A stretch of DNA of 64,000 nt from Candidatus Saccharimonadales bacterium (GTDB lineage: Bacteria > Patescibacteriota > Saccharimonadia > Saccharimonadales > UBA4665): the NCBI GenBank assembly GCA_035946175.1, contig DASYZQ010000008.1:1177-65176 (forward strand), given 5' to 3'. The notes under the pieces are model-generated. The model saw nothing but the letters and a program-made list of their open reading frames with translations, ran no database searches and was not told where the DNA came from. Shown piece after piece: positions 15,789 to 54,612 of this stretch; positions within the stretch are counted from its first letter, which is position 1, and the number at the start of each line of letters is the position of its first letter. A program made the position numbers and the translations under genes.

Positions 15789-15923
15789 ATCACCCCCTCT
15801 ATGTAATAGCTGCAGTCTTCATAACCTATAAAAAATCAGACAGCAGCCTTGTTAGATCTTTAACATGTCGTCGTTGCAGCTTTTGTTACATTAAGTCATT
15901 GTCCGTTCATGCAGGAGGTACGT

Positions 15924-17201: not shown

Positions 17202-17222
17202 TAAAAGAAAGGGAAGACGCCT

Positions 17223-27754: not shown

Positions 27755-27759
27755 AGCCT

Positions 27760-28320
27760 ATGCGCCAACGAGTCGATCCCTTCATACCAGTCCGCAAGCC
27801 CATGTCGCCGAGCCTTCAAGGGCCATACGGAACTCAGTACTTCGCCAAACGGCCGCTCAGCCCACCACGGTCAATGGATGGCATCCAGCAGCGACCGCCA
27901 GTAATTAGGCCACCACTGCGCCCAAGGCCATTGATGCCGATCAAGGCCCCGCTTGTCAAGCCGAAACCACCACAACCCAAACATCCAACCACTAAGCACC
28001 GCATTCAGCTCCGGCCCAAATTAACAAAAACGCCATTGCTGGTGTGGGCCATTGGAGCCGTCTGTTTCGGTCTGTTTATTCAATCACTCATTTTCGGGGA
28101 ACTCGCTATTGTCATATATATAGGACTTTCGTTATGGCGACGTATCTCCAGCAGCAAAACGTATATTCTGGCGCTCATTACACTAGTCACCACTGGTGTC
28201 AGCCTGGCAATTCACGGTGGTCCCACCATGCTCAGTAACAACTTCGCTGTTTACGCATTCCTACTACTTCTTGGCGGTACGCTCAGTCTAGCCCGGGAGG
28301 TGCGTCATGAAAATCAATGA
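27760..28320 (+). CDS. Pro/Lys-rich N-terminus plus 3-TM membrane protein
   Basis: 186 aa. SD AGGGAG is present and the gene sits last in the co-directional block. Confidence 0.5.
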   Translation: MRQRVDPFIPVRKPMSPSLQGPYGTQYFAKRPLSPPRSMDGIQQRPPVIRPPLRPRPLMPIKAPLVKPKPPQPKHPTTKHRIQLRPKLTKTPLLVWAIGAVCFGLFIQSLIFGELAIVIYIGLSLWRRISSSKTYILALITLVTTGVSLAIHGGPTMLSNNFAVYAFLLLLGGTLSLAREVRHENQ

Positions 28321-38494: not shown

Positions 38495-38603
38495 GCAGTG
38501 AATTCGGACACATCTTTGTTAAATTTCACATTTTATCTTGCGTTACTGTTAATCTCTGATACAGTCTAAGATAATATCAATTATTACAAGGTTAGGTTAT
38601 TAC

Positions 38604-41211: not shown

Positions 41212-42414
41212 TTATCTAAGTATTTGTTCAAATGTGTAATATGCTGGCTTCTTGCTTCCGTCACTTTGCAAAAGCCCGAAAAATTTCTCATTGGTAGAGG
41301 GATCTGCCCCACTGTCTTTGTAGGTATACCAGAACAATGGCCCTAACCAGGAAGATGACCGCACATAAGCAACCGCCTGCTGAGCCATAATAGCTTGGAG
41401 CGCCTCATCGACATGATCTGGAGAAGTATTGGTGTTGTATCCTTTCTGGGTTGCTTCTGCACCTGGACCGTTAGTAGGAGCACCGTATTCGGTGAGCCAG
41501 AGAAGTTTTTTACTATCACCGTTCGTGATCATAATATTCCGTAGACTATCTTGTGTATTGTCGATCATCGACCAACCGCTCCAGCCTGCTGTCTGGTCTG
41601 GCAGGGCAGGAAAGGAGTATGGATGATAGCCAACGGCATTAAAGTAGGGCCCGGCACCATACTTGTAGACATCGGCGAGAAAGGCTGGAGCGGCAATACT
41701 TTGCGAAAACTGATCCATTACTCCGAGGCCGCCGCTTATAACCGTCGCCTGGGGCTCTACCGACCTTATAGCCGGATAGACCGCCTTTAGAAGTGCCGCG
41801 TAAGCCCTTGGATCCGGCGCTGGCCGCCAAAACCCCATAAGGTTAGGTTCGTTCCATATCTCCCAGTCGTGCACTCCTTGAGGTTTGAAGTGAAGTACTG
41901 CTGCTTGTGCAAAAGAGGCAAACTGTGCCGGATCTGCAGGCGCGCACTTATCCGTGCTATCACAGTTCGCCAGCCTCGCCCACTGAGGAGCGTAGGCAAG
42001 CGTAGGAAGGACGTGAAGCTTGTATCGTGAGGCCGTATCGACGATACCATCATACGCTGACCAGTCATAACCGTTCGGACCGTCAGCCTGTACTGTCTCC
42101 CACTGTATGTCAAAACGAATCCAGGTAAAACCGAGGTGGGCTACATCGGCAAGTTCGGATGCCAACTCAGAGCTAGATAGATACTGGAGCGTGCCGCCGA
42201 ACGACATGCCAAATGCTGCCCGTCTTACCGGCGAAGCATGGGTGGTACTTGTTTTCTGGTTTGCCACAGAAGACCCACTGTTCACAACTATATTTGCCGC
42301 GGCTGCTACAGCAAGCAAAAAGGTAAGCGCCATGGCAAGAAGGCCTGGTGTAGGCCGGAACGGCCATAACCCGCTACGCCGCCCCAACGTCATGAGTCTT
42401 TGTTTGTACATCAT
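41212..42414 (-). CDS. clan GH-A (GH5-like) glycoside hydrolase with N-terminal TM anchor
   Basis: WEIWNEPN and LWLTEYG motifs. Start trimmed to ATG 42414 (MMYKQR), because ATG 42504 would leave only 16 nt to the divergent gene. Confidence 0.7.
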   Translation of the reverse strand: MMYKQRLMTLGRRSGLWPFRPTPGLLAMALTFLLAVAAAANIVVNSGSSVANQKTSTTHASPVRRAAFGMSFGGTLQYLSSSELASELADVAHLGFTWIRFDIQWETVQADGPNGYDWSAYDGIVDTASRYKLHVLPTLAYAPQWARLANCDSTDKCAPADPAQFASFAQAAVLHFKPQGVHDWEIWNEPNLMGFWRPAPDPRAYAALLKAVYPAIRSVEPQATVISGGLGVMDQFSQSIAAPAFLADVYKYGAGPYFNAVGYHPYSFPALPDQTAGWSGWSMIDNTQDSLRNIMITNGDSKKLLWLTEYGAPTNGPGAEATQKGYNTNTSPDHVDEALQAIMAQQAVAYVRSSSWLGPLFWYTYKDSGADPSTNEKFFGLLQSDGSKKPAYYTFEQILR

Positions 42415-42520
42415 TGCATTTGTGTTTCGTAAGGATATACTGCCATTATAAGAGGTAGCAAAACAAAAAGAAAGCTTATATAATAAAAATAAGCTAAATT
42501 TCATAAACCAGGGAGATTGT

Positions 42521-43786
42521 GTGAAGCAAAAGCTACTGGCCCTGCGTCAAGATACCTTGTTCAGAAATTCGATTTACTTAATGGTATCCACAGGCATTAT
42601 GGCACTATTGGGCTTCGTGTTTTGGCTGATCAACGCTCGGTTGTTTACGCCTTCCCAGATCGGGGTTGCCACAACATTGATCTCGGCAATGAATCTGATC
42701 TCCTATATCGCACTCTTGGGTTTTAACAGCACGTTCATTAGATTTCTACCAACCTCTAAAGACAGAAGCAATGAAATAAATACCGGCTTACTGCTGTCGA
42801 TTATTATGGCTGCGCTGGTCTCGACTGGCTATATTCTACTCATACCATACATCGCTCCGAAACTTGGCATTGTGCATCACAATCCGTGGTACGCAATCGG
42901 TTTCGTGATTATGGCCGCGTTAGCGGCCATAAATCTACTCACCGACAGCATTTTCATAGCCTACCGGGCGGCAAAATATAATCTGCTGATCGACGGTATT
43001 ATTATGAGTAGCATCAAGTTAGCGCTACCTTTCTTGTTGGTTGGGTTGGGCGCCTATGGGGTATTTGCCGCTTCCGGCTCGGCGGCATCAGTTGCTATGG
43101 CCCTAAGTATCCTCTTCTTGACGCTTAGGTTTAACTATAGACCGGAATTCAAAATACGGACCTCTACACTTAGAAAAGTACTCCATTATTCTTTTTCGAA
43201 TTACGTTGGCAATCTTCTTAACATTGCACCAACCCTGGTATTACCACTGGTCGTGATCAATCATTTGGGAGCAGCCGCGGCCGGCTACTATTATCTAGCG
43301 TTTATGGTCGCCAATCTACTCTATACAGTGGTATATGCCGTATCACAGTCACTTTTTGCTGAAGGCTCATATGCCAACCAAACACTACGGGAACTAGTAA
43401 AGCGCTCCAGCGCCGTAGTTGCGGGTATAATGGTGCCGGGGACAATCATACTATACTTCGGGGCTCACCTAATACTTGGCACCTACGGCAAGAATTATGG
43501 CAGCAAGGCTTCGAGCCTGCTAACCGTACTCGCTCTGGCTGCTCCGGCAGTGGCCATTTATACAATCGTGACAGTACTACTTCGCATCAACAAGCAGGTC
43601 TACTCCCTAATAGTTGTTAATATTATCTATCTCCTTACTATTTCCGGCTTTGCAACGCTGTGGGTAGACAGAGGTCTTAAGTGGATCGGTTATGCCTGGG
43701 CGATGGGGCAGATAACTGCCGGCTTGGCTGGTCTATTAGTGCTTCTGTTGGGGCATAAGTCCAAAGTTCAGGAGGCTATATTGTGA
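42521..43786 (+). CDS. polysaccharide flippase (MOP/Wzx-like)
   Basis: About 12 TM segments. GTG start with GGGAG upstream. Confidence 0.75.
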   Translation: MKQKLLALRQDTLFRNSIYLMVSTGIMALLGFVFWLINARLFTPSQIGVATTLISAMNLISYIALLGFNSTFIRFLPTSKDRSNEINTGLLLSIIMAALVSTGYILLIPYIAPKLGIVHHNPWYAIGFVIMAALAAINLLTDSIFIAYRAAKYNLLIDGIIMSSIKLALPFLLVGLGAYGVFAASGSAASVAMALSILFLTLRFNYRPEFKIRTSTLRKVLHYSFSNYVGNLLNIAPTLVLPLVVINHLGAAAAGYYYLAFMVANLLYTVVYAVSQSLFAEGSYANQTLRELVKRSSAVVAGIMVPGTIILYFGAHLILGTYGKNYGSKASSLLTVLALAAPAVAIYTIVTVLLRINKQVYSLIVVNIIYLLTISGFATLWVDRGLKWIGYAWAMGQITAGLAGLLVLLLGHKSKVQEAIL

Positions 43787-44904
43787 GGCATCTGGTACAA
43801 GTAGTCGCCCTATATAACCCCCCGCACGTAGGTGGCATGGAAATGCGCGCCAGGGATCGGGCAGAGCGACTCACTAAAAGGGATTGGACAGTAGAAACCC
43901 TAACCTCAAGTGAGAAAACCTACCCGCACGTTGTTGAAGACAACAACCTAACTGTGCGTTATCTCAAAAGCAAAGAAATCGCGCGCACGCCGATTATATT
44001 TTCCTTGCCATTTTCCCTTATGAAGATCCCCAAAGACAGTATCGTACAGGTTGAGACGGCCATAGCCTTCTGTCCAGAAATTACGGCATTTATCTGCAAA
44101 CTCAGGGGTATATCATACATTGCGAGGGTACCGCTCGATTCGACTGGCCACAGTAAGCTCAGAGATAAGTTGCTAAGTTACTACCAGAAGTCAGCGCTTA
44201 GGTGGGTATATAAGCATGCGGCGAGGATAATTGTGCTCACCGAGGACGATGTGGTCCACATTTCCGAGAAGTATCACGTTGATCCTAAAAAATTTCGTAT
44301 TATCCCCAATGCGACTGATTTTGTTCCAGTGAAAGCACCTCGGAAGGACTTCCATAAACCTTTCAGGCTATTGTTCGAGGGCAGGATTGCTGGGCAGAAA
44401 AACGTGCCGCTACTACTCGAGTCGCTACGCTACTTCCTTGATACATATGCACTGCCAGTCCATCTGAATATAGTCGGGGACGGCGAGGGAATGCCGACAG
44501 TCAGAGATAAGATAAAGGAGCTATCGCTTCAAAAATACGTCAGTCTGAATGGATTCGTAACCGGTAGAAAGGTCGAAGAATACTTTGAAGATGCCGATGC
44601 CTTCGTCATGAGCTCAACACATGAGTCCTTCCCTCAGACGCTGCTCGAGGCCATGGCTAAAGGCCTCCCCATGATAACAAGCAATATTTTAGGTGTGCGT
44701 ACGGTCGTGAAAGATGGCAAGAGCGGCATTCTGGTAGATCTGGCCAAGGAGAGCTTTGCAAACGCATTCCACCGACTCATAGTTGAAAAAAAGTTATATC
44801 AGAAGCTGGCCAACGGGTCTTTCGAAGAAGCCAAGAAATATAGCTGGGATGCAACTATAGACGCATATCTAGATCTATATACTGAGCTACAGCCCGTAAA
44901 ATAG
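43783..44904 (+). CDS. GT4 glycosyltransferase
   Basis: ESFPQTLLEAMAKGLPMI motif. GTGA overlap with the flippase gene. Confidence 0.85.
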   Translation: MRHLVQVVALYNPPHVGGMEMRARDRAERLTKRDWTVETLTSSEKTYPHVVEDNNLTVRYLKSKEIARTPIIFSLPFSLMKIPKDSIVQVETAIAFCPEITAFICKLRGISYIARVPLDSTGHSKLRDKLLSYYQKSALRWVYKHAARIIVLTEDDVVHISEKYHVDPKKFRIIPNATDFVPVKAPRKDFHKPFRLLFEGRIAGQKNVPLLLESLRYFLDTYALPVHLNIVGDGEGMPTVRDKIKELSLQKYVSLNGFVTGRKVEEYFEDADAFVMSSTHESFPQTLLEAMAKGLPMITSNILGVRTVVKDGKSGILVDLAKESFANAFHRLIVEKKLYQKLANGSFEEAKKYSWDATIDAYLDLYTELQPVK

Positions 44905-44970
44905 TATTTCCCGTTGATCGATTTGTGGCAGCTTGGTTCGAGTGCCGTCGCCTAAGCTAAGGCCAAATAC

Positions 44971-47900
44971 TTACTGATAAACCCGAGCTCCGCCGTTGTT
45001 ATAGATCAGGTTTTTATTGTTGTCGAGAAACTGAATAGGATACGTGTAGGTAACCAAGTCGCCGTTATATAAGAAGGTTGCCTGATGCTTGGTGCTGTCG
45101 GTGTAGCCCAGATAGACGTACGATTTCTGCCTTATAAGACCTGGGGTAATATCGTCCCTGGGTGACAGGTTCGTCAGTGATGTTACTTCTCGGAAAGCAT
45201 AGCGGTCAGTTTGGACTTCTGCCTGGACGCTAGAACCATTGCCGTGTACAAGTCCTGACAGCCAGTTTATGGCCGTAACCTCTGTTGTATGCATATAGTA
45301 CACATCATAATATTGACCACTATTGTTGAGTTGCAGTTCCGGCTGATAGCCCCCGAGCAGCTGGGAGATGGCGCTGGTGGAGGCTAGGAAAAATAAGAGA
45401 GCCAGTGCTGCCGGAGCCATATTTCTAAGTATGTGGGGTCTAAGCCAGGCACTTAAAGCGAAAGTACCAACCATTACGAATAACCCCAGGATCATCAGTG
45501 ATTGCTGGAAAGCTCTGAGCAGCCCATAGGCGATTGACAGATAGGGCAGAACGACTTGGGCAAACACGAATACCGCGCACCCAGCCGTCAGTAGGAAGAA
45601 TTCAGGTTCCAGAGATTTATTGAATTTCTTTTTAAATGCGGTGAATATAAGCCCCACTACCACGAAAACCTGTAGTAGCCTAGCCCAGGCTTGCTTGAGC
45701 ATGATATCAACTGTCTTGACATTGATACCGTATTTCTGGATATGTCGGCCGAGATCTGTAAGTGGCAATATAGTCTGAGGAGCTACCTGGACCGGATACT
45801 GATGAATGGTATTGTTCGAATAAAATACCCCCCCGGCAGCGCGAGAACGGGCCTTGTTGACCACTGATTGTTGATATTCCCGCAATTCTTTCTGTGGATT
45901 AATCGAACCGGAGTAAAAAATACTGTAGAGTACATCAGCAGAGCGGGCATCTTCTTTAAGCCCAGTAGTAAAACTACTTATTGTCTGCCCGATAAGCGAC
46001 GAGGCAGCATTAGACGTATTGGTGAGCACCGTATTCCATGTAAAGCATAGCAACGACACCAAGATGATCATTGGTATGGTTATGTTGGGCTTTGCGAGCT
46101 GGCTACTTTCTCCGAGACCCTCAATGCTGGATTGCCTGAGTCGCCGCCATTGCCTCAACTTTGGGACAATCGGGTACAGTATTAGACGAGCAAAGCCTAG
46201 AAACAGCAATATCGAGACAACCGAATACGTAGTTGAGTAATGTGACAGCACCATACCCAGTGCAAAGACAATAAACAACCACTGACGCTTTCTTATTGCA
46301 ATCCTGCCGTCGAACACGACCAACAACATCAAGATCAGGAACAAAAAGGCAATTTCCTGGCGATTCAGAAATGGCATGTCGGTGAAGAAGGTCGGGAAAG
46401 ATATGAAATAAATGGTAGCTATAAAGGCTTTGGCTTTAGACAAGTACCGACGCATAAAAAGATAGACCAAGACCGGCACTGTAGCAAATATCAGCTGAAA
46501 GAAAACCTTATAGACGTAGGGATCACGAACGTGCAGTAAGTTTGATAATATCGTTGGCAGTATGGTGATACTAAGACAGGCATTGTAGGGATCACGGAAC
46601 GCGCCGATGTTCCATATACCCTGAGCCTTGGCAATTTGGAATACCCGGTACTCACGCTGAATATCGTGGCCGGTGACATACCAGCCCCTCAACGAGGTCA
46701 TCAAAAGCAGCGCCAGACTCATCATAAAAATTGCCCAAGCGATGGTGTTATCCTGAAGGCGCTTGCGAAACAACAGCAGCGCCCCCATATATCCTGCCAT
46801 AAGCAGCAACATGGCAAGCGTAAAGCCATCGGTACCACCATTATTCAGACTGGTAGACCCTATGGCGCTCAAGACGATCAGACTGACTGGCACCAATAGT
46901 GCTGCAATGTCCAGTTTGCTAGGCACCAGATATCGCCAGTGCAGCTGTGGGTTGTAGATTCTAAGCCGGTACCAACTCCAAGAGGCTATAAGCCCATACA
47001 TGGCGCTCAACTCCCATAAGAGCGGTGTCCGAGCAAGCGGCCTGCCCACCCCTAAGTAGGGCAAGATTGCGTTGCAGGCAAGCGTCCAAACCATCAATTC
47101 CAGTACACTTAGGCCAACTATTTGCCCCAACCGATACCAAAACGGCAGCCGCCGACCGACATTCAGGCTTAGATGGGTTAAAAGCCCCGGTACTATAATC
47201 AGTGCCAAAAAACCGACTATATTCAGAAGCCCCAGCGTATTATCGTAGCGCGAGCCTAAGAGCAGGAAAGAGGTCCACACCAATGTCGTGGCAGCCAGTA
47301 GCCGTAGCCGCTGTGTAGTTACAATCTGGGCTTGCCGAACCTTCTTGTAGAGTGTACTAAAGCCGTCGGTCAGCTGCTGCCATGAATATTGCTTAGCCGT
47401 TTCGAAGCTGGCTACCGAAAGTCTATGTAACTTCTTAGAGTCCGGCAGCAGCGCATCCAGCTTGTCGGCAAAGGCCCGCCCACTGTCGCCGTGAACAAGT
47501 TCACCAACACCACGAATAAGTTCACGAATACCAATCACGTTAGCACCAACAATAGGTAGCCCGGCTGCCATAGCCTCTAGCAGAACCAGGGGCATGCCTT
47601 CGCGCTCCGAGGCCAACACAAATACGTCGGCCTGTTTGTAGTATTCCAGTAATTTGGCCGGCGTCTTAGCACCGACAAATCTGACGTTAGTAAGCCTTAA
47701 TTCTGCCGCCAACGCTTTCAGCTCTGCGCCGTCTTCACCATCGCCTACAATGGTCAGTTCGGCTTTAGTCCTGAGCAATGACATGGCTCGGATAAGTAGC
47801 TGTACGCGCTTCTGAGGAGACAGGCGTCCAACATATAGCAGCTTTCGTGGTCCTTTGACGTAACGTCTGGGGTGAAGAAAATACTCCTGGCCGACACCAT

Positions 47901-49545
47901 TGGGGATAATGGCAATCCGCTCTTCAGGCAAATTATACATCTCACAAACAAAAGCTCGCTGATCCCTGGAGAATACGACTACACTGGCTGCATGTCTGAT
48001 CACCATCCTGATTACCGAGGCTTTGTAAACTTTAAAGAGCCAGCCCAAGGGGCCTGAAGGCTGCAAATCTAGGTGAAAGTGCACGATGTAGGGGATACCC
48101 CGCAACTTGGAGACCAACAGTACCAGTTCGGGATAAAAGGCTTGAGTAAGATGCAGATGAATAATCGAACGTTTCGGGATGCGGAAGATAGCTGGTATGA
48201 AGCCAGGTGCGAAGGGCGTGTGGGCGAATTCGAACGCCTTAAAGCGTGTTACTCTAAGGTGATCGCTATCCGCCGAAGCTATAGCTATGTCCGAAGTCAG
48301 CACTTGTATATCAAACCCACGTTCGGCCAGATTTTCGGACAATGATTGGGCAACCCGCTCCATACCACCCAGGTGGCTCGGATAATAGGGCGCCACCTGT
48401 ATCACCATAGGTGTACTCAACCTTGCGAACAGCTCTGCAGTATTATGAACCATGGTGGTGGTCGAGTATTTCCTATGCACCTCAGTTAAACTGTTTCGCG
48501 ATAGCTGCCGGCGCAGCGATTTGCTGCGAAATAGTTCAATTATTTTCTTGGCCAATTGCTGCGGATCGGCCGGTGCCGCCAGCAGCCCTGTTATCTTATC
48601 TTCGACAAGCGTATTCAGTGGCGGGAGATCGGCGACGATTACTGGCAAGGCTGCCCCCCAGGCCTCCAAAAGTACGGTTGGCAGAGCGTCGTTAGCTGTA
48701 TCGGGGTACAAAACGGCGGAGGAGGCGGAGGCTAAAAGATCCAGCTTTTGTCTTCCGGTCACCATGCCAACAAAGCGAACCAAGCGAGTAATGCCGAGTT
48801 GCTGGGCCTGGGCCTCATACTCGGCCCGCATGTCACCATCACCGGCGACCAGCAGTTCAATATCTGGTAAGACTTTTTGAGCAATAGCAACTGCTTCGAT
48901 CAGATAGCCAAGCCCTTTCCAGGCATGAGTATGGTCAAGCGTGGAGATGAAAATAATTCGATGATTACTATTATCAGATACGGCCTGCTTTGTGCTTTCG
49001 ATGTCAATGGCGTTATATATGACCTCCGTTTTTTGAGCGACCTTCTCCGAGAATTGTGACTTGACGTAGTCGGAAACAGTGACTACTTTTTGAGCCATTT
49101 TAAAGGTTTTCTTACCAAGCAATGCCTCATAAACCCGGATAACCATATTAGCGAATGGTGCATCTTTTTTATACAGTGTAGCAGCGTGGTTAGTGAGCAC
49201 GAAGGTCGTACCCTTACTGGCCCGTGCAGCCATATCGGCAAGAAATGGTACCGGAGTATGGGCATTTACCACATCAGGTTGCTCTTCCTTTATAATCCGC
49301 TTTAGAATGTAGTACCACCTAAAATCCATCGGCGTGTTAGAAACCTTACGCTTCCAGGGCAGACGAATAACCTGCAGACCTAGAATCTCTTCACGCTCTA
49401 TCCGCCGCGTGCCGGGCTTCGCAGCTGTACTGACAACTACTACATCATGCCCGCTCTTTTTCAGGCCCTGGGCCAGGTTCATCACATAAGTCTGCACACC
49501 GCCGACCGACGGATAGAAGTAAGGGCTAACGATCAAAATCTTCAT
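44971..49545 (-). CDS. 1524-aa fusion: GT4 + GT4 + large polytopic membrane domain (DUF2206/GT-C/polymerase-like?)
   Basis: Two GT-B starts (MKILIVSPYFYPSVGG and MVIQVAPYYPSHLGG), each with an E-x7-E region. From about aa 750 there are at least 18 hydrophobic segments, then a soluble tail. Confidence 0.8.
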   Translation of the reverse strand: MKILIVSPYFYPSVGGVQTYVMNLAQGLKKSGHDVVVVSTAAKPGTRRIEREEILGLQVIRLPWKRKVSNTPMDFRWYYILKRIIKEEQPDVVNAHTPVPFLADMAARASKGTTFVLTNHAATLYKKDAPFANMVIRVYEALLGKKTFKMAQKVVTVSDYVKSQFSEKVAQKTEVIYNAIDIESTKQAVSDNSNHRIIFISTLDHTHAWKGLGYLIEAVAIAQKVLPDIELLVAGDGDMRAEYEAQAQQLGITRLVRFVGMVTGRQKLDLLASASSAVLYPDTANDALPTVLLEAWGAALPVIVADLPPLNTLVEDKITGLLAAPADPQQLAKKIIELFRSKSLRRQLSRNSLTEVHRKYSTTTMVHNTAELFARLSTPMVIQVAPYYPSHLGGMERVAQSLSENLAERGFDIQVLTSDIAIASADSDHLRVTRFKAFEFAHTPFAPGFIPAIFRIPKRSIIHLHLTQAFYPELVLLVSKLRGIPYIVHFHLDLQPSGPLGWLFKVYKASVIRMVIRHAASVVVFSRDQRAFVCEMYNLPEERIAIIPNGVGQEYFLHPRRYVKGPRKLLYVGRLSPQKRVQLLIRAMSLLRTKAELTIVGDGEDGAELKALAAELRLTNVRFVGAKTPAKLLEYYKQADVFVLASEREGMPLVLLEAMAAGLPIVGANVIGIRELIRGVGELVHGDSGRAFADKLDALLPDSKKLHRLSVASFETAKQYSWQQLTDGFSTLYKKVRQAQIVTTQRLRLLAATTLVWTSFLLLGSRYDNTLGLLNIVGFLALIIVPGLLTHLSLNVGRRLPFWYRLGQIVGLSVLELMVWTLACNAILPYLGVGRPLARTPLLWELSAMYGLIASWSWYRLRIYNPQLHWRYLVPSKLDIAALLVPVSLIVLSAIGSTSLNNGGTDGFTLAMLLLMAGYMGALLLFRKRLQDNTIAWAIFMMSLALLLMTSLRGWYVTGHDIQREYRVFQIAKAQGIWNIGAFRDPYNACLSITILPTILSNLLHVRDPYVYKVFFQLIFATVPVLVYLFMRRYLSKAKAFIATIYFISFPTFFTDMPFLNRQEIAFLFLILMLLVVFDGRIAIRKRQWLFIVFALGMVLSHYSTTYSVVSILLFLGFARLILYPIVPKLRQWRRLRQSSIEGLGESSQLAKPNITIPMIILVSLLCFTWNTVLTNTSNAASSLIGQTISSFTTGLKEDARSADVLYSIFYSGSINPQKELREYQQSVVNKARSRAAGGVFYSNNTIHQYPVQVAPQTILPLTDLGRHIQKYGINVKTVDIMLKQAWARLLQVFVVVGLIFTAFKKKFNKSLEPEFFLLTAGCAVFVFAQVVLPYLSIAYGLLRAFQQSLMILGLFVMVGTFALSAWLRPHILRNMAPAALALLFFLASTSAISQLLGGYQPELQLNNSGQYYDVYYMHTTEVTAINWLSGLVHGNGSSVQAEVQTDRYAFREVTSLTNLSPRDDITPGLIRQKSYVYLGYTDSTKHQATFLYNGDLVTYTYPIQFLDNNKNLIYNNGGARVYQ

Positions 49546-51389
49546 GACCTACCCCCGGTGGTTTCAAGAGCCTCCTGAAGCAACCGATCTGTCTTATCTG
49601 CCTGCAAATGCCAGCTTAAGTGCCGCTCCGCCTTGTTGCGGCCCGCCCTGCCTAACTGTCGCGCCTTTTTAGGATGATCTAGCAGATAGATTATTTTCTC
49701 GGTTAAAACACGACTTTCAGCCGGAGCTATCAGATAGCCGGTACGGCCTTCATCAATAACGTTGGGCAGGCCACCGACCTTCGTGCCGATCACCGGTAAC
49801 CCAGAAGCCATGGCTTCCAAGACCACCATGCCAAATGATTCGTTGAGAGAAGGTAGCACAAAAACCGAAGCCTGACGGTAGACCGCTGCTAGCCCGTTGC
49901 CATGCTTGACGCCATGAAAATGGACATGCCCAGAAAGCCCAATCCTGTTGGCCAAATTCTTGAAATAGGCCTGGCCGTCGTCGGCACCAACCAGATGAAG
50001 CTTCGTCTTAGGATGCGTTTTTATGATCTCAGCCATTGCTCTTAGCAAATAGGAAACTCCTTTATGATTGTCCGAGCGCCTCAAGCTGCCCACATACAGA
50101 ACAGTATACTGAGGCAAGTCCTTAGCAGGTGAAAACTGATCAATATCGACCCCGGGGCTGATAGTCCGCGACTTATCTTTAAAAGCTTTCAGAGATTCCC
50201 GCACGATGTCCGAGGGGCAAATGATGCGTACCGCGCTTCTAAGGGTCATAGGTAGTACATGGTGCTCATAGAGCCCGATCAGCCAGTCAGTTTTTAGTTT
50301 GTGCTTCTTCATACTAAGCATATGATACGTAATAACCACCGGAGTTCGTCGAGCAATGCGTATAGCCACATCGGCAAACAACGGTACAGGCGCATGGGCG
50401 TTAATAATTGTCACATTCTCATGCTTGATAATCCGCCGTAGTTGTAATGGCCATAGCGGGCTAAACGGAGTATTTGAAATTTTGATCCAGTAGGGAAGAC
50501 GATAAACAGTCAACCCAGCGTAGGCGGTTTTTGCAGGACGTAGGCCCCGCCTACCCGATGTTGCGACGCATACTGACCATCCATACTTACTTTTGAGTTG
50601 TTTGGCGATATTATATGCATAATATTCTTGGCCCCCTGCATGTGGTGGAAAGTATGGAGCAGCTATAAGAAGCCGCTTTGGCCGATAGTTCGGCAACTCA
50701 CCATTAGTAGCATATAGGGCTCGCTTCCGGCCCCCAATGTATCGCAGTACATTTTCAAGTTTTTCCCAGTCTTTGTGCTTATCTATCTCCCAGGAATGGC
50801 CCCACAAATGGAATATGCCGCCTTCCTTTATCACGCGATCAAACATGGCTTTGGCGAGATTATCCCACTGGAAGTAGCGAATCGTCTTTACAGGGCTAAA
50901 TCCGGCAAAGCGGGCGATCTTCCACAAATCCTGAAAGTGGTTATAGGTATTAACTGTTGTATCTGCTTCAAGCAGCGAGCCTTTCAAATTAAATGAATGT
51001 CGACGTATGCTACGTGCATAGGTAAAGCCAGCCGCCCCAACCATTGCCACATGTCGTGCTTCGTAATTGCCGCCCGGATAGCAAAAGCTGGTAAGCTTGG
51101 ATTTTGTCAAATGCTCCAAATACTTTTTTGATTCGACGATCTCTCTTTTGGCCTGGCTATCGGAGAGCTGAGGCAAACGTGGATGTGTCATAGTATGCGC
51201 CCCGATCTCAAAATCCTTACTAATAGCTCTTATATCTTCATCCTGCAGACGATCATGAGCTGCAAATTCTCTATCTCTCGGGGAGATATAAAATGTACCC
51301 TTTATATTATATTTCCGAAGCAATGCCGCAAGACGCATATCAAGCTTATGCCCATCATCCCAGCTCGTAGTAATGAGTACTTGCTTCAT
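49542..51389 (-). CDS. fusion: polysaccharide deacetylase (CE4/NodB) + GT4 glycosyltransferase
   Basis: N-terminal TTSWDDGH and GAHTMTHP motifs. C-terminal PYFPPHAGG and ESFGMVVLEAMASGLPVI motifs. ATG 51389 is preferred over TTG 51395. Confidence 0.85.
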   Translation of the reverse strand: MKQVLITTSWDDGHKLDMRLAALLRKYNIKGTFYISPRDREFAAHDRLQDEDIRAISKDFEIGAHTMTHPRLPQLSDSQAKREIVESKKYLEHLTKSKLTSFCYPGGNYEARHVAMVGAAGFTYARSIRRHSFNLKGSLLEADTTVNTYNHFQDLWKIARFAGFSPVKTIRYFQWDNLAKAMFDRVIKEGGIFHLWGHSWEIDKHKDWEKLENVLRYIGGRKRALYATNGELPNYRPKRLLIAAPYFPPHAGGQEYYAYNIAKQLKSKYGWSVCVATSGRRGLRPAKTAYAGLTVYRLPYWIKISNTPFSPLWPLQLRRIIKHENVTIINAHAPVPLFADVAIRIARRTPVVITYHMLSMKKHKLKTDWLIGLYEHHVLPMTLRSAVRIICPSDIVRESLKAFKDKSRTISPGVDIDQFSPAKDLPQYTVLYVGSLRRSDNHKGVSYLLRAMAEIIKTHPKTKLHLVGADDGQAYFKNLANRIGLSGHVHFHGVKHGNGLAAVYRQASVFVLPSLNESFGMVVLEAMASGLPVIGTKVGGLPNVIDEGRTGYLIAPAESRVLTEKIIYLLDHPKKARQLGRAGRNKAERHLSWHLQADKTDRLLQEALETTGGRS

Positions 51390-51397
51390 GATCAACC

Positions 51398-52552
51398 CTA
51401 CCCCTCGCTAATAACTTCATCATACAACTTGTTAAGTCGTCGGATAACACCCGGCCAAGCAAAATAGCTATTGGCATAGGCGAGCGAATATTCACTCATT
51501 TCTTTATATCGCTTATCGTCTTTAATAATTGAGGCCAATGCATCTTTGATGACTACAGGGCTACGATCCTCAAGCAACCAGACAAGCCCCTTTTGTAAGT
51601 TATACCTTTTATATCCTTCGTCGTCCTTCATGACGACCGGTAGCCCCGACGCCATAGCCTCCTGCACGCTCAGCGGAAAGCCCTCTCCTTCGGAAGGCAG
51701 CGCGAATATGTCGGCCGCCCGATATACTTCGGCGAGCTTATGCTGAGGTAGTTCGCCTAGAAACGCTAGATCATTGCTGTTTTTACGCTTTGTCGTACCG
51801 CCTACAAAAACGAGCTGGTATAACTCACTGCTGGAGGCAAGCAACTGATCGAAACCTTTTTTCGGCACATACCGCCCGACGAAAAGGACAATTGGCCTAT
51901 CTTGTGACAAGCTATACTTTTTACGGATAGAATCCCTTTCTTGATCTGCTGCCGGGCGAAATAACTCCGTATCGACACCATTCGGCAACTGTACAATTTT
52001 GGCGGAGTTGACCCTATGGGCGATCAGGAAGGCCTCTACCCGATCGTTCAATGTCAGTATGCGGCTACTGAAACGGAAGACTCCTGCGCCGGTCGTAGCA
52101 TATACTGCCTTCTCAATAAGATTAACCAACTTACTACTATGGGGAATGAGTGCCACATGCTGTGTGAGAACAACGGGTTTCTTAGATAGTCTGGCAGCGA
52201 CCAGGGCTACAAGTGAGGAAAGGTAAAATGCATCATGAATATGCACAATGTCAGCCTGCTTAGCTTCTTTAATCAGGACCCCCAAAAGCCGGGGGGAAAA
52301 TACAGGGAAAGGGATACCCTGCTTTTGCAAACCATTCCAGGCTTTCACCCTAATAACTCGCACGCCGTCCGCTATCGTGCTCTTCTCGCCAGGCGAGACG
52401 CTACTTGTTACCACTGCCACCGTACACCCCGCGGTGGCCAGATATTTCGCCTGATGTTGGGCAACATATTCTATTCCGCCTAGATGAGGTGGGTAATAGT
52501 GACTTACGATGAGCACCTTCCGGGATCTTTTTCGCGTGGCAGTAGCCGTCAT
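51398..52552 (-). CDS. GT4 glycosyltransferase
   Basis: SHYYPPHLGG and EGFPLSVQEAMASGLPVV motifs. Confidence 0.85.
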   Translation of the reverse strand: MTATATRKRSRKVLIVSHYYPPHLGGIEYVAQHQAKYLATAGCTVAVVTSSVSPGEKSTIADGVRVIRVKAWNGLQKQGIPFPVFSPRLLGVLIKEAKQADIVHIHDAFYLSSLVALVAARLSKKPVVLTQHVALIPHSSKLVNLIEKAVYATTGAGVFRFSSRILTLNDRVEAFLIAHRVNSAKIVQLPNGVDTELFRPAADQERDSIRKKYSLSQDRPIVLFVGRYVPKKGFDQLLASSSELYQLVFVGGTTKRKNSNDLAFLGELPQHKLAEVYRAADIFALPSEGEGFPLSVQEAMASGLPVVMKDDEGYKRYNLQKGLVWLLEDRSPVVIKDALASIIKDDKRYKEMSEYSLAYANSYFAWPGVIRRLNKLYDEVISEG

Positions 52553-52559
52553 AGCGTCC

Positions 52560-53282
52560 TCAACCTGCGGAGTCAGACCCAGTATCTAGTTCAGGCCGTG
52601 CATTGCTAGCCGATAGACGCTTCTTGAAGAGTTCAGACATGGTCCGCCAAGCATCGACCACCGATAATTTTACCTCCCCAACTCGTTGTCGGTAGACAAT
52701 AGGTACTTCTGCACAACGAAAGCCTTTCAGAAAAGCCTCTACCTTTATCTCTTGGGAGAAGGGCATACCATTGTGCTTGACTTCAAGGTGCTGCCATACT
52801 GTTCGTCTGAATATCCACATGCCTGATTGAGAATCTCTAAACGGTGTGCGAAATAGTATACGCATTGTCAGACTCAGCACGTAGTTCCCGAATATATGCG
52901 TCGGCTGCATGGCGCGGGGGTAGAGCTTGCTCAGACGATTAGTGGTTATGAAATCCAGATCCTCAGCATGCAGCTTAGCCAAAATTTCGGGCAATGCATC
53001 AAACGGATATGTCGTGTCCGCGTCACCTGTAGCAATAATGTCACCCTGAGCATTTTCAAAACCTGCCTTATATGCATTCCCGTAGCCTCGCTTTGGTTGA
53101 TAGACAACTCGTGCTCCGTGGGCACGAGCAATTTTGGCTGTAAGATCTGATGAAGCATTATCAACAACAAGCTTTTCAACTTCATAACCGGCCGTTCGTA
53201 GAGCTTCTATAGGTATACTGTCTAGAGTCGGGCCAATGCCATCTTCTTCGTTATATGCAGGGATGACAATAGTAATCTTCAT
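52560..53282 (-). CDS. GT2 glycosyltransferase (Dol-P/polyprenyl-P sugar synthase-like, soluble)
   Basis: IVIPAYNEEDGI, VVDNASSD and TGDADTTY motifs. Confidence 0.85.
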   Translation of the reverse strand: MKITIVIPAYNEEDGIGPTLDSIPIEALRTAGYEVEKLVVDNASSDLTAKIARAHGARVVYQPKRGYGNAYKAGFENAQGDIIATGDADTTYPFDALPEILAKLHAEDLDFITTNRLSKLYPRAMQPTHIFGNYVLSLTMRILFRTPFRDSQSGMWIFRRTVWQHLEVKHNGMPFSQEIKVEAFLKGFRCAEVPIVYRQRVGEVKLSVVDAWRTMSELFKKRLSASNARPELDTGSDSAG

Positions 53283-53758
53283 TTCTCTACATCCACCCAG
53301 AAATGAATAGCTTCTGGCATATCAATTAATTGCACGTTCAGTTCACTACGGCCGGTGGTCACCGGTACCGTGATAGTATCCCTTAGACTGACTGTTTTAC
53401 CATTTGGTAGTGCCACTTGGTGCTGGCCCAGTTCTGTTCCGCTACCTTGAGCATCTACAAAAGTGGTGCGGTAGGTATATACCATATCCTTTGCTTCAAG
53501 ATTGTTGATAGTGAAGCCGACCGAAAGTGACTGTCCGGCCTTGGTGACAAGAGGCAGAGTAGTAGGGTCGGTGAAGTACAGTTCGGTTAAACGTTCAGGC
53601 TGGTGTGTCGTTGCGTTTACAAATGTTTGAGTATTTCTGGCCCAATTGAGAAAAACGGCTATACCGATAAATAAAAAGATAGCTACTAACGCGTAGAGAA
53701 TTTTAGCCATAGTATGGTTATCCCGAATAGCCATTTTTGCCTTCTGGTTACTACCCAT
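53279..53758 (-). CDS. TM-anchored beta-rich protein (DUF1616-like?), first gene of the minus-strand glycan operon
   Basis: 159 aa with one TM helix, then LYFTDP...FTINNLE. ATGA overlap with the GT2 gene. Confidence 0.45.
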   Translation of the reverse strand: MGSNQKAKMAIRDNHTMAKILYALVAIFLFIGIAVFLNWARNTQTFVNATTHQPERLTELYFTDPTTLPLVTKAGQSLSVGFTINNLEAKDMVYTYRTTFVDAQGSGTELGQHQVALPNGKTVSLRDTITVPVTTGRSELNVQLIDMPEAIHFWVDVEK

Positions 53759-53916
53759 GGTTACGCAACGACACCAGCTAACAAGTTCACTGGTTATGTC
53801 TGATATACAATACTATAAATGCACATAAACGGCAAACGAATGTTGTTATGATGCATTCCGTTACGATATTCTGCTTTTTTGTAAGGCTTTGTAAGGTGAG
53901 GTGATCTCTTGGCGCA

Positions 53917-54609
53917 TTACACTTTCATAAAATGAAAAAACTGCCCCCGGCCAGTGTTTGGCAGTGCCGAACTGGGCAGGTATGCAACTGTGGCTGCCGC
54001 ATAGGCTGCTCCAGCAGTCCAGGACCAACTATTGTTAAACGTACCAGTCGATGAAGCAATTTGGTAGCCAACATCCATATCCGCGGTTATCGAGCTGGTA
54101 TCCTGCCTGGTGTAGCCGGCTGGAGATGTAATGGTCTCGCTCGTACCGCCACCGATAGCTACACCAGTAATAATCAGATCGGCTGGGCGGGTAGTAGATG
54201 CAGATAGTGCACAGACAGAAGACGTATTGGTAGTAGTCGAGGAGTTGGTACCGGCCCGATCAACCACAAAACCCGAGCTTGGCAGACCAGAGAACTCCAT
54301 TGTAATCATACCGTTGTTATTGATACTGGCGCTCCAATTAAGGGTCAGGTGGGCCGTGCTCCCGTACGCATTTAAGACCTGGGTGTGGGCAATATAGATG
54401 CCCGGGCCTGAAGCAAATGCGGAAGCGTCGGTCACCCAGCTGTTGCCCGCGGGATCGGTTATAGACGTAAGGGTACCGGCCCCACCTGACTTGATGACAG
54501 CGATGAGCATATTACCTACGCTGGGCCTGGTATTAATTGGTACTATAGTAGTTGTTCCACCCGAGCTGCCAGTCCACGTATTTGTTGTCTGGGTTACGTA
54601 GCTAATCAC
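53917..54609 (-). CDS. Ser/Thr/Gly-rich beta-sandwich-like hypothetical protein
   Basis: 230 aa. GTG start 3 nt after the stop of the tailspike-like gene. Confidence 0.5.
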   Translation of the reverse strand: MISYVTQTTNTWTGSSGGTTTIVPINTRPSVGNMLIAVIKSGGAGTLTSITDPAGNSWVTDASAFASGPGIYIAHTQVLNAYGSTAHLTLNWSASINNNGMITMEFSGLPSSGFVVDRAGTNSSTTTNTSSVCALSASTTRPADLIITGVAIGGGTSETITSPAGYTRQDTSSITADMDVGYQIASSTGTFNNSWSWTAGAAYAAATVAYLPSSALPNTGRGQFFHFMKV

Positions 54610-54612
54610 GTT

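What the first reader, a model, noticed from the sequence alone, without database searches (positions are those of the whole stretch)
44971..53758. Minus-strand glycan operon ending in a 1524-aa GT4+GT4+polytopic megaprotein and containing a CE4+GT4 fusion
Five co-directional genes show overlapping or near-touching stops and starts (ATGA at 53279-53282 and 49542-49545). In order they are a TM-anchored beta-rich protein, a soluble Dol-P-sugar-synthase-like GT2, a GT4, a polysaccharide-deacetylase+GT4 fusion, and a single polypeptide with two complete GT-B domains followed by at least 18 TM segments. Placing two transferases and a putative polymerase/translocase in one chain, and a deacetylase on a transferase, suggests an assembly-line arrangement that is uncommon in characterised O-antigen/EPS loci. 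Several components recall archaeal surface-glycosylation gene sets: the Dol-P-type GT2, the DUF2206-like polytopic domain, the DUF1616-like small protein, and a TrmB regulator nearby. That resemblance is from memory and needs checking.
Basis: partly seen in the sequence, partly recalled or inferred. Interest (0 to 1): 0.6.

Follow-up and report, generated by a model that had tools for sequence, protein, structure and literature searches.

The report
Fused glycosyltransferases in conserved DUF2206 glycan cassette
A soil Saccharimonadales (ultra-small CPR) bacterium carries a real 1524-residue protein that joins two cytoplasmic sugar transferases to an outward-facing membrane glycosyltransferase of an unstudied family (DUF2206); it is one fusion state of a gene cassette shared by Patescibacteria and Actinomycetota that probably builds a partly de-acetylated surface glycan without the usual starter and polymerase enzymes.

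Summary
Five co-directional minus-strand genes, with ATGA overlaps at 53279-53282 and 49542-49545, encode:
- a TM-anchored beta-sandwich protein (DUF1616-like);
- a soluble DPM1/ArnC-class GT2;
- a GT4;
- a cytoplasmic CE4+GT4 fusion;
- a 1524-aa GT4+GT4+DUF2206 protein.

An independent Logan contig and a second soil sample show no indels, so the long ORF is intact.

The membrane domain has about 17 TM helices, not 18 or more. It folds confidently (pLDDT 88.6). It matches GT-C class A enzymes (AftA, STT3/PglB/AglB, DPY19, ArnT) and not Wzy/WaaL. All invariant polar motifs lie on the outer face.

The cassette is syntenic in 80 genomes of Patescibacteria and Actinomycetota. It also includes GT4, Wzx and a PslG-like hydrolase at 41212-44904. 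Neighbouring genes are fused in many different combinations. In the nearest relatives the megaprotein is two overlapping genes.

A phosphoglycosyltransferase lies near the cassette in only 1 of 80 loci.

Best reading: a Wps/Gac/Agl-like pathway. GT2 primes polyprenyl monophosphate, the GT4s and CE4 elaborate the glycan, Wzx flips it, and DUF2206 transfers or polymerises it outside.

The archaeal resemblance holds at family level only. All nearest relatives found are bacterial.

The parts
53279..53758 (-). 159-aa accessory protein. It has a short basic N-terminus, one long TM helix (about residues 11-50) and an extracytoplasmic Ig/Fn3/CARDB-like beta-sandwich. It is DUF1616-like. Conserved motifs are QPExxTELYF and FSFTIHNxEG, with N86 and Y94 invariant.
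   Evidence: (pLDDT 90.5). Present in 42 of 80 loci. Adjacent to the GT2 in 26 of 43 occurrences, and fused to Wzx in L074.
52560..53282 (-). 240-aa soluble GT2 of the polyprenyl-phosphate sugar-synthase class (DPM1/AglJ/ArnC/GacI-like). It has a DAD motif at residue 87 and no TM helix. Its start overlaps the upstream stop (ATGA).
51398..52552 (-). 384-aa GT4 (GT-B) glycosyltransferase with an EX7E motif. It is cytoplasmic.
   Evidence: Orthologues sit at the same position in related loci.
50676..51395 (-). CE4 (NodB) deacetylase domain of the 617-aa fusion protein. The start is probably the ATG at 51389. The catalytic and metal motifs TTSWDDGH, HTxxH, FCYPGG and HxWGH are invariant in 48 of 48 orthologues. 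There is no signal peptide, so the domain is cytoplasmic.
49542..50675 (-). GT4 domain of the CE4+GT4 fusion, with an EX7E motif. The stop overlaps the megaprotein start (ATGA).
   Evidence: The same CE4+GT4 fusion occurs in L001-L004, L007, L009, L025, L050 and L064.
48412..49545 (-). First GT4 domain of the megaprotein (aa 1-378). It is a DX7E subtype (DALPTVLLEA).
47326..48411 (-). Second GT4 domain of the megaprotein (aa 379-740), with an EX7E motif. This is the module that always lies next to the DUF2206 gene in relatives, or is fused to it.
44971..47325 (-). DUF2206 membrane domain (aa 741-1524, plus the stop codon). It has a GT-C class A fold with about 17 TM helices, N-in and C-out. 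It carries a large outer loop and a C-terminal beta-rich outer domain. The invariant outward-facing motifs are RGWxxxGHDxQxE (D961, E965), DMPFLNRQE and HY.
   Evidence: (pLDDT 88.6, pTM 0.91).
43783..44904 (+). 373-aa GT4, convergent with the operon. It belongs to the conserved cassette.
42521..43786 (+). 421-aa Wzx-type (Polysacc_synt) flippase. It belongs to the conserved cassette and is present in 73 of 80 loci.
41212..42504 (-). 430-aa clan GH-A hydrolase. By Pfam it is GH5-like. By sequence its nearest solved structure is PslG of the Pseudomonas Psl pathway (E 1e-25). It is present in 56 of 80 loci.

Best explanation
The locus is one copy of a conserved, unstudied surface-glycan cassette. 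The cassette comprises a small DUF1616-like protein, a GT2, three to five GT4 modules, a CE4, a DUF2206 GT-C, a Wzx and a PslG-like hydrolase.

Proposed mechanism (shown or inferred is marked at each step):
1. The soluble DPM1/GacI-class GT2 puts the first sugar, probably a HexNAc, on polyprenyl monophosphate at the cytoplasmic face. This is inferred from family class and from the absence of a linked phosphoglycosyltransferase.
2. The GT4 modules extend this lipid-linked glycan from NDP-sugars, and the cytoplasmic CE4 removes one N-acetyl group. The cytoplasmic location is shown. The substrate is inferred.
3. Wzx flips the lipid-linked oligosaccharide (inferred).
4. The DUF2206 domain uses the flipped lipid-linked glycan to polymerise it and/or transfer it to a wall, lipid or protein acceptor. 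That the domain is a GT-C class A enzyme with conserved acidic and polar motifs all on the outer face is shown. The donor and acceptor are inferred.
5. The membrane-tethered PslG-like hydrolase trims or releases the product (inferred).

The 1524-aa protein arose by fusion of two adjacent, translationally coupled genes, GT4-GT4 and DUF2206. These remain separate in the nearest relatives (shown). The fusion ties the last cytoplasmic steps physically to the outward step.
For: Domains.

GT-C class A fold: the model has pLDDT 88.6 and pTM 0.91. Foldseek gives probability 1.0 to AftA, STT3, PglB, AglB, DPY19, AftD and ArnT. It gives no hit to Wzy, WaaL or RodA.

Topology: 17 helices obey the positive-inside rule, and every invariant polar motif lies outside.

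Cassette synteny: components are present in the 80 loci as follows: GT4 in 77, Wzx in 73, GT2 in 65, the hydrolase in 56, CE4 in 47 and the small protein in 42.

Rosetta-stone fusions link all the steps:
- GT2+GT4;
- GT4+CE4, CE4+GT4, GT4+CE4+GT4 and CE4+GT4+GT4;
- GT4+DUF2206, GT4x2+DUF2206 and GT4x3+DUF2206;
- Wzx+small protein.
One search adds GT2+DUF2206 and CE4+DUF2206.

No other polytopic candidate for the outward step exists in the cassette.

A PGT homologue lies near the cassette in only 1 of 80 loci. The genome's single WbaP-like PGT sits on another contig with its own GT4, GlmS and GDP-mannose genes.

GT2 class: ArnC, DPMS and GtrB are the nearest structures.

The CE4 catalytic motifs are invariant.

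Fusion origin: aa 1-736 align with the 746-aa proteins of L002 and L003, and aa 746-1524 align with their separate DUF2206 proteins.

Precedent: the Lactococcus Wps and Streptococcus GacI/J/K/L systems use a C55-P primer, a Wzx flippase and GT-C enzymes (PMC9574508).
Against: Nothing here is biochemical. The lipid carrier, the sugars, the order of steps and the acceptor are all inferred.

The genome does hold one WbaP-like PGT that could prime this pathway in trans.

15 of 80 loci have no GT2 within 10 kb, so GT2 priming cannot be universal.

TM-scores to solved GT-C enzymes are modest (0.35-0.45). The fold class is therefore secure, but the donor type is not.

GT4 (retaining) and GT-C chemistry would mostly give alpha linkages, whereas clan GH-A hydrolases cut beta linkages. 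At least one linkage is unaccounted for.

The role of the small protein is unknown.
Confidence: 0.55

Rival explanations
1. A three- or four-component decoration system. The GT2 makes only polyprenyl-P-monosaccharide. Wzx flips it, as GacK does. DUF2206 adds single sugars outside to a glycan or glycolipid that the GT4 modules build separately. That glycan could sit on a membrane lipid, as in PIM/LM or GPI-like logic, or on an Und-PP carrier primed by the unlinked WbaP-like PGT.
For: - The GT2 belongs to the class that normally pairs with GT-C enzymes as a monosaccharide donor synthase.
- The top fold hit, AftA, uses a polyprenyl-P-monosaccharide.
- Wzx-family GacK flips C55-P-GlcNAc (PMC9574508).
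- The GT2 + CE4 + GT-C trio recalls ArnC/ArnD/ArnT (own knowledge).
- A PGT exists elsewhere in the genome.
- GT4d has weak hits to glycolipid-anchor GT4 families.
Against: - The cassette holds no polymerase, ligase, ABC exporter or synthase for a GT4-built chain other than DUF2206 and Wzx.
- GT2+GT4 fusions occur in ten or more loci, which argues that both act on one substrate.
- DUF2206 co-occurs more tightly with GT4 (77 of 80) and Wzx (73 of 80) than with the GT2 (65 of 80).
Confidence: 0.25
2. A protein oligosaccharyltransferase. DUF2206 transfers the flipped glycan onto surface proteins such as S-layer proteins or pili, as AglB, PglB and STT3 do. The DUF1616-like beta-sandwich protein would be a subunit or a substrate.
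For: - STT3, PglB and AglB are among the best fold matches.
- The architecture is a TM domain followed by a C-terminal outer domain.
- DUF2206 and DUF1616 were first defined in archaea, which N-glycosylate surface proteins. A Haloferax DUF1616 protein is itself an AglB-dependent glycoprotein (PMC8241124).
Against: - No WWDxG motif is present in the protein or in any of the 47 aligned relatives.
- A conserved PslG-like endoglycanase points to a polymer.
- TM-scores are low and do not favour OSTs over AftA.
Confidence: 0.1
3. The cassette was acquired recently from archaea and is an archaeal surface-glycosylation set.
For: - Pfam DUF2206 rings in Methanosarcina acetivorans among the control genomes.
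- The GT2's best named NCBIfam families are archaeal.
- The small protein is DUF1616-like.
Against: - All named nearest relatives are bacterial, for both the membrane domain and the GT2.
- The tree gives two deep bacterial clades, and the window nests inside Saccharimonadota with 98% support.
- The NCBIfam scores are far below the equivalog cut-offs.
Confidence: 0.05
4. The 4.6-kb ORF is an assembly or frameshift artefact that joins two genes.
For: In the closest relatives the two halves are separate genes overlapping by 4 nt, so a single-base error could fuse them.
Against: - An independent contig of X1 and pieces from a second sample, X2, agree with no indel across 44800-53900.
- End-to-end homologues of 1545-1557 aa exist in other lineages: L016, P0020 and P0023-P0025.
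Confidence: 0.02

Closest known systems
Lactococcus lactis PSP pathway (WpsA/B, WpsC-F, WpsG, WpsH, WpsI, WpsJ) and Streptococcus pyogenes GacI/J/K/L (PMC9574508)
   Same: - A TM-less GT-A/GT2 works beside a small membrane protein and primes C55-monophosphate.
- Cytoplasmic GTs extend the glycan.
- A Wzx-family flippase is used.
- GT-C enzymes polymerise and/or transfer outside.
- The module contains no PGT.
   Different: - The GT-C here is DUF2206, a different and uncharacterised family, and there is only one of it.
- The small protein is a single-TM beta-sandwich protein, not the three-TM GacJ/WpsB.
- A cytoplasmic CE4 and a PslG-like hydrolase are added.
- The cytoplasmic GTs are all GT4 and are partly fused to the GT-C.
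- Homology of the parts to Wps or Gac proteins was not tested.
Haloferax volcanii Agl N-glycosylation (AglJ, AglG/I/E, AglB; AglD-AglR-AglS) (own knowledge)
   Same: - An AglJ-like GT2 scores best among named families.
- The glycan is built on a polyprenyl monophosphate.
- A Wzx-like flippase is used.
- A GT-C class A enzyme acts outside.
   Different: - The GT2 scores far below the AglJ equivalog cut-off (117 bits against 325).
- DUF2206 lacks the STT3/AglB WWDxG motif.
- The host is bacterial and the nearest relatives are bacterial.
- The acceptor is unknown.
Pseudomonas aeruginosa Psl pathway (PslA-L) (own knowledge for the pathway; PslG match)
   Same: - A PslG-like membrane-tethered endoglycanase.
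- A GT2 plus several GT4s.
- A Wzx-type flippase.
   Different: - Psl starts with the PGT PslA and uses the Wzy-like PslJ plus PCP/OPX export proteins.
- None of these is in the cassette. DUF2206 takes the place of the polymerase.
Actinoplanes missouriensis imp cluster for the sporangium-matrix polysaccharide (PMC12691653)
   Same: - The parts are three GT4s, one ArnC/DPM-clade GT2, a Wzx, a GT-C-like membrane protein proposed to act as the polymerase, and an adjacent GH5.
- It is shown genetically to make an extracellular polysaccharide of repeating oligosaccharides.
   Different: - ImpE is annotated Alg6_Alg8-like with 11 TM helices.
- The only strong DUF2206 locus in Actinoplanes liguriensis (L073) has a different gene content and order from the published imp cluster.
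- The imp cluster is therefore an analogue, not a shown orthologue.
- The imp cluster has no CE4.
ArnC-ArnD-ArnT lipid A aminoarabinose pathway (own knowledge)
   Same: A GT2 polyprenyl-P sugar synthase, a cytoplasmic-face CE4-family de-acylase acting on a lipid-linked sugar, and a GT-C transferase outside.
   Different: - Arn moves a single sugar.
- It has no GT4 modules, no Wzx and no hydrolase.

Membership tests
Pfam DUF2206 (PF09971) | Match to the family HMM above the gathering score | tested here: met
   74.3 bits against a 35.6 cut-off, in two stretches that cover profile positions 3-100 and 122-368.
GT-C class A glycosyltransferases (ArnT/PglB/PMT/AftA type) | A polytopic fold similar to solved GT-C class A enzymes, with an outward-facing first catalytic loop carrying conserved acidic residues | tested here: met
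   Foldseek probability is 1.0 to AftA, STT3, PglB, AglB, DPY19, AftD and ArnT. The invariant RGW..GHD.Q.E loop lies outside after TM7 by helix parity and the positive-inside rule. No catalysis was tested.
STT3/PglB/AglB oligosaccharyltransferases | A WWDxG motif in the C-terminal outer domain | tested here: not met
   There is no WWD, and no WW at all, in P0001. 0 of 47 aligned relatives have WWD.G. Pfam gave no STT3 hit.
Wzy polymerases / O-antigen ligases (GT-C class B) | A Wzy_C or O-ag_pol_Wzy profile match, or a fold match to WaaL, RodA or Wzy | tested here: not met
   No such Pfam family at E <= 0.01. No such chain among the Foldseek matches.
CE4 / NodB metal-dependent deacetylases | A NodB domain with the Asp-Asp (MT1), His-x-x-x-His (MT2) and catalytic His (MT5) motifs | tested here: met
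   Polysacc_deac_1 scores 72.4 bits. WDDG, HTMTH and HLWGH are invariant in 48 of 48 orthologues. PDB relatives are CE4 deacetylases.
Polyprenyl-phosphate glycosyltransferases of GT2 (DPM1/AglJ/GtrB/ArnC/GacI class) | A GT-A domain with DXD that is closest to known polyprenyl-P sugar synthases, plus activity on C55-P or Dol-P | tested here: inconclusive
   The best NCBIfam hits are Dol-P-hexose transferase (118 bits, cut-off 375) and AglJ (117 bits, cut-off 325). The best PDB hits are ArnC, DPMS and GtrB. A DAD motif is present. All scores are below equivalog cut-offs, and activity cannot be tested here.
GT4 (GT-B, retaining) | Glyco_transf_4 and Glycos_transf_1 domains with an (E/D)X7E motif | tested here: met
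   All five GT4 modules hit both Pfam halves. EX7E is present in four modules, and DX7E in the first module of the megaprotein.
Pfam DUF1616 (PF07760) | Match above the gathering score | tested here: inconclusive
   The window protein scores 26.8 bits, below the 31.6 cut-off. It covers only profile positions 151-282 of 307. 29 of 35 orthologues match at E <= 0.01, with best E 7e-11.
PslG-like endoglycanases (GH39-related, clan GH-A) | Sequence similarity to PslG, with the two catalytic Glu residues of clan GH-A | tested here: inconclusive
   phmmer gives E 1e-25 to PslG (4zn2, 5bx9) over residues 111-429. The Pfam Cellulase hit is weak, at 32 bits. The catalytic residues were not mapped.
Wzx/Wzy-dependent pathways with PGT initiation | A phosphoglycosyltransferase (Bac_transf or WecA type) and a Wzy in the locus | tested here: not met
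   The window has no PGT. A PGT homologue lies within 10 kb of the DUF2206 gene in only 1 of 80 related loci. The genome's only Bac_transf gene is on contig C14, and its only Glycos_transf_4 gene, taken to be MraY-like from its length and family, is on C26.

The most novel reading that the evidence does not exclude
DUF2206 defines a new GT-C family that takes the place of both the Wzy polymerase (or a ligase) and PGT-dependent initiation. The pathway would be self-contained and would run on polyprenyl monophosphate, in an archaeal/Wps style.

The pathway is shared by ultra-small Patescibacteria and by Actinomycetota. These are the two partners of known Saccharibacteria-actinomycete epibiotic pairs. 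Its partly de-N-acetylated glycan could therefore be a surface determinant of epibiont-host recognition or mimicry.

The many fusion states, including this 1524-aa chain, would mark a physically coupled trans-membrane assembly complex.
Probability: 0.3. Interest if true: 0.75.

Novelty: new variant of a known kind. Interest (0 to 1): 0.55.

Why it matters
CPR bacteria have tiny genomes. This one is 1.19 Mb, yet it gives at least 12.5 kb to this cassette and carries two further glycan clusters in the same 64-kb window. Its surface glycans are therefore likely to be central to its lifestyle.

The cassette's key enzyme family, DUF2206, has about 3,700 clusters at 50% identity. Full-text search found no paper that mentions it.

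If it works as proposed, it would extend the GT2-primed, Wzx-flipped, GT-C-finished logic beyond lactococci, streptococci and archaea. It would reach two large monoderm lineages and would add a new GT-C family with a new donor or acceptor.

The natural fusion series gives free information on which steps are neighbours. Several culturable actinomycetes carry the cassette (Streptomyces gilvus, Amycolatopsis halotolerans, Pseudonocardia asaccharolytica, Actinoplanes liguriensis), so the hypothesis can be tested directly.

Tried and rejected
- A sequence search of the membrane domain against PDB gave only chance hits. A fold search was needed.
- Full-text search for DUF2206 found 0 papers. A search for PF09971, DUF1616 and PF07760 found only a motif-mining paper and a Haloferax glycoproteome table.
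- The Actinoplanes imp cluster was considered as an orthologue. I rejected that as unproven. The one strong DUF2206 locus of A. liguriensis has a different gene content and order, with no room for a 5-TM gene.
- Genus-wide and multi-handle genome searches failed on the server.
- A profile-profile comparison of the small protein with the DUF2206 domain found no relation.
- tRNA and Rfam scans were empty.
- The promoter and terminator scan found fewer sites than the shuffles and was not informative.
- The beta-helix gene pair at 53917-56562 and the VKOR gene were tested as cassette members. Neither has a homologue in any of the 80 loci, so I left them out.


Full report
**1. Observation**

The minus strand between 44971 and 53758 carries five uninterrupted ORFs of 159, 240, 384, 617 and 1524 aa at exactly the stated coordinates. 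The two ATGA stop-start overlaps are there. The GT4 and the CE4+GT4 gene are separated by a few bases, and the latter probably starts at the ATG at 51389.

- GT4+GT4+DUF2206 (74 bits, above the cut-off; a weak PMT_2 hit lies in the middle);
- NodB/CE4+GT4;
- GT4;
- a short GT2 whose best named relatives are the haloarchaeal Dol-P-hexose transferase and AglJ, both far below their cut-offs;
- a DUF1616-like small protein.

A 30.4-kb Logan contig from one soil run covers the whole stretch with no difference. 20 pieces from a second soil sample show no indel. End-to-end homologues of 1545-1557 aa exist elsewhere. The long ORF is therefore not an artefact.

**2. The membrane domain**

An alignment of 47 sequences gave an AlphaFold2 model with pLDDT 88.6 and pTM 0.91.

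Foldseek against PDB returns only GT-C class A enzymes at the top, each with probability 1.0 and TM-scores of 0.35-0.45. They are AftA, human and yeast STT3, PglB, AglB, DPY19, AftD, ArnT and ALG9. Nothing of the Wzy, WaaL or RodA class appears. The STT3 signature WWDxG is absent.

Reading the model's helices against hydrophobicity and charge gives 17 TM helices, N-in and C-out. Every positively charged short loop lies inside. Every invariant polar motif lies outside:
- N825/P829;
- N901/N902;
- R953-G-W...G-H-D961-x-Q-x-E965;
- D1056...R1062-Q-E1064;
- H1102-Y.

This is what an outward-acting, lipid-donor-dependent glycosyltransferase should look like.

**3. The other parts**

- CE4. The domain has no signal peptide or TM. 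In relatives it is sometimes sandwiched between two GT-B domains (L008), so it works in the cytoplasm. Its metal and catalytic motifs are invariant in 48 of 48 orthologues.
- GT2. It has no TM helix. Its nearest solved relatives are ArnC, Pyrococcus Dol-P-Man synthase and GtrB.
- The 159-aa protein. It is a long TM helix plus an Ig/Fn3/CARDB-like sandwich (pLDDT 90.5). 29 of 35 orthologues hit DUF1616.
- The hydrolase. The "GH5" gene at 41212-42504 is closest in sequence to PslG, the endoglycanase of the Psl pathway (E 1e-25).

**4. Context and relatives**

The genome is 1.19 Mb in 53 contigs and 97.9% complete. It has a single DUF2206 gene.

A scan of species-representative genomes found 424 relatives of the membrane domain. 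The best 80 are Patescibacteria (Saccharimonadales, Paceibacteria, Adler-, Kaiser-, Yonath- and Woykebacteria), Actinomycetota, a few Acidobacteriota, and one Ktedonobacteraceae. No archaeon is among them.

Searching the window's proteins against the ORFs of these loci shows one conserved, largely collinear cassette: small protein - GT2 - GT4 - CE4 - GT4 - GT4 - DUF2206 - (GT4) - Wzx - hydrolase. Presence in the 80 loci is GT4 77, Wzx 73, GT2 65, hydrolase 56, CE4 47 and small protein 42. The window's cassette therefore runs from 41212 to 53758. The beta-helix pair upstream (53917-56562) is not part of it.

Neighbouring genes are fused in many combinations:
- GT2+GT4;
- GT4+CE4, CE4+GT4, GT4+CE4+GT4 and CE4+GT4+GT4;
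- GT4+GT4;
- GT4+DUF2206 (5 loci), GT4x2+DUF2206 (2 loci) and GT4x3+DUF2206 (1 locus);
- Wzx+small protein.
The protein database adds GT2+DUF2206 and CE4+DUF2206.

Among the best 150 clusters at 50% identity, 14 are longer than 1000 aa, which indicates an added N-terminal region. The family has 3749 clusters at E <= 0.001.

In the window's nearest relatives (L001-L003, 49-55% identical) the DUF2206 gene stands alone. It overlaps an upstream GT4 gene (L001) or a 746-aa GT4-GT4 gene (L002, L003) by 4 nt. P0001 residues 1-736 and 746-1524 align collinearly with the L002 and L003 pairs. The megaprotein is thus a recent, lineage-specific fusion of two coupled genes.

The tree of the domain has an Actinomycetota clade and a Patescibacteria clade. 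The window sits inside a Saccharimonadota group with 98% support. Only 5 of 31 close relatives carry the gene, so the cassette is patchy.

**5. Mechanism**

No phosphoglycosyltransferase lies in the window. A PGT homologue lies near the DUF2206 gene in only 1 of 80 loci. The genome's one WbaP-like PGT is on another contig with its own GT4, GlmS and GDP-mannose genes. The cassette has no Wzy, ligase, ABC exporter or synthase.

The most economical reading follows the Lactococcus Wps and Streptococcus Gac logic (PMC9574508) and the archaeal Agl logic:
1. The TM-less GT2 primes polyprenyl monophosphate.
2. The GT4 modules extend the glycan, and CE4 de-N-acetylates one residue on the cytoplasmic face.
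3. Wzx flips the product.
4. DUF2206 polymerises and/or transfers it outside.
5. The PslG-like enzyme trims it.

The GT2+GT4 fusions argue that GT2 and GT4 act on the same molecule. The tighter co-occurrence of DUF2206 with GT4 and Wzx than with the GT2 argues that DUF2206 handles the GT4-built glycan.

What is shown: the domain identities, the fold class, the topology, the cytoplasmic location of CE4, the conservation of the cassette, and the origin of the fusion. What is inferred: the carrier, the sugars, the order of steps and the acceptor.

The main rival (confidence 0.25) is a Gac-like decoration system in which DUF2206 adds single sugars from a polyprenyl-P-monosaccharide. A protein-OST role (0.1), an archaeal origin (0.05) and an artefact (0.02) are less likely.

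**6. Comparison and novelty**

The closest characterised systems are listed with their similarities and differences in the closest-known section: Wps/Gac, Agl, Psl, the Actinoplanes imp cluster (PMC12691653) and Arn. The locus works like them. It is a member of none of them. It fails the STT3 motif test, the Wzy/ligase test and the test for a locus-encoded PGT.

DUF2206 itself is uncharacterised, and no paper in the library mentions it. I therefore class the locus as a new variant of a known kind. The single-chain GT4-GT4-GT-C architecture is a minority fusion state that recurs in other lineages. It is not a unique invention.

Other agents of this scan have described the same cassette in other genomes and reached similar readings. 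I consulted those notes after forming mine. They are not independent evidence.

**7. Verdict**

The archaeal affinity holds at family level only. Interest is moderate, at 0.55.

Noticed in passing
window 53917-56562: The co-directional 230-aa Ser/Thr/Gly-rich protein and the 649-aa pectate-lyase-like beta-helix protein lie just upstream of the operon. Neither has a homologue in any of the 80 related loci. They look like a strain-specific addition, perhaps a glycan depolymerase or epimerase.
   Followed up: partly
window 48412-49545 (first GT4 module): This module has DALPTVLLEA (DX7E) instead of EX7E. The same subtype occurs in L006, L012, L013, L049 and L065. The nearest relatives L002 and L003 carry an EGFGMVL[LI]EA module at this position. 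This suggests module replacement, and so a different sugar or linkage, between close relatives.
   Followed up: partly
G010:C5:106407-108623 (a same-family relative): The DUF2206 gene is broken into three open frames of 520, 236 and 87 aa. It is probably a pseudogene or a sequencing frameshift in that genome.
   Followed up: no
L010, L014, L056, L065, L080: Bins labelled Acidoferrum, Gammaproteobacteria, Sulfotelmatobacter and Ktedonobacteraceae nest inside the Patescibacteria clade of the DUF2206 tree. The cause is either mis-binned CPR contigs or lateral transfer.
   Followed up: no
L074:7731-9704: One ORF joins a Wzx flippase (residues 76-471) to a copy of the small DUF1616-like beta-sandwich domain (510-640). 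This links the small protein to the flipping or outward step rather than to the GT2.
   Followed up: no
G000:C14:58000-77000 (locus L085): The genome's only WbaP-type phosphoglycosyltransferase sits with one GT4, GlmS, sugar epimerases or dehydratases, a ManC-like nucleotidyltransferase, a phosphomannomutase-like HAD and a GDP-mannose 4,6-dehydratase. This indicates the capacity to make GDP-Man-derived sugars and hexosamine precursors.
   Followed up: partly
window 15909-28320, 33738-40493 and 41212-53758: Three separate glycan clusters lie in one 64-kb window of a 1.19-Mb genome. The first and third each include a Wzx-like Polysacc_synt gene (15909-17201 and 42521-43786). The first also has a 1245-aa protein with a CBM_4_9 hit, and the second an 851-aa protein with a GH5-type domain, which earlier notes of this scan describe as polytopic. 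Together they span about 31.6 kb, roughly 2.7% of the genome.
   Followed up: no
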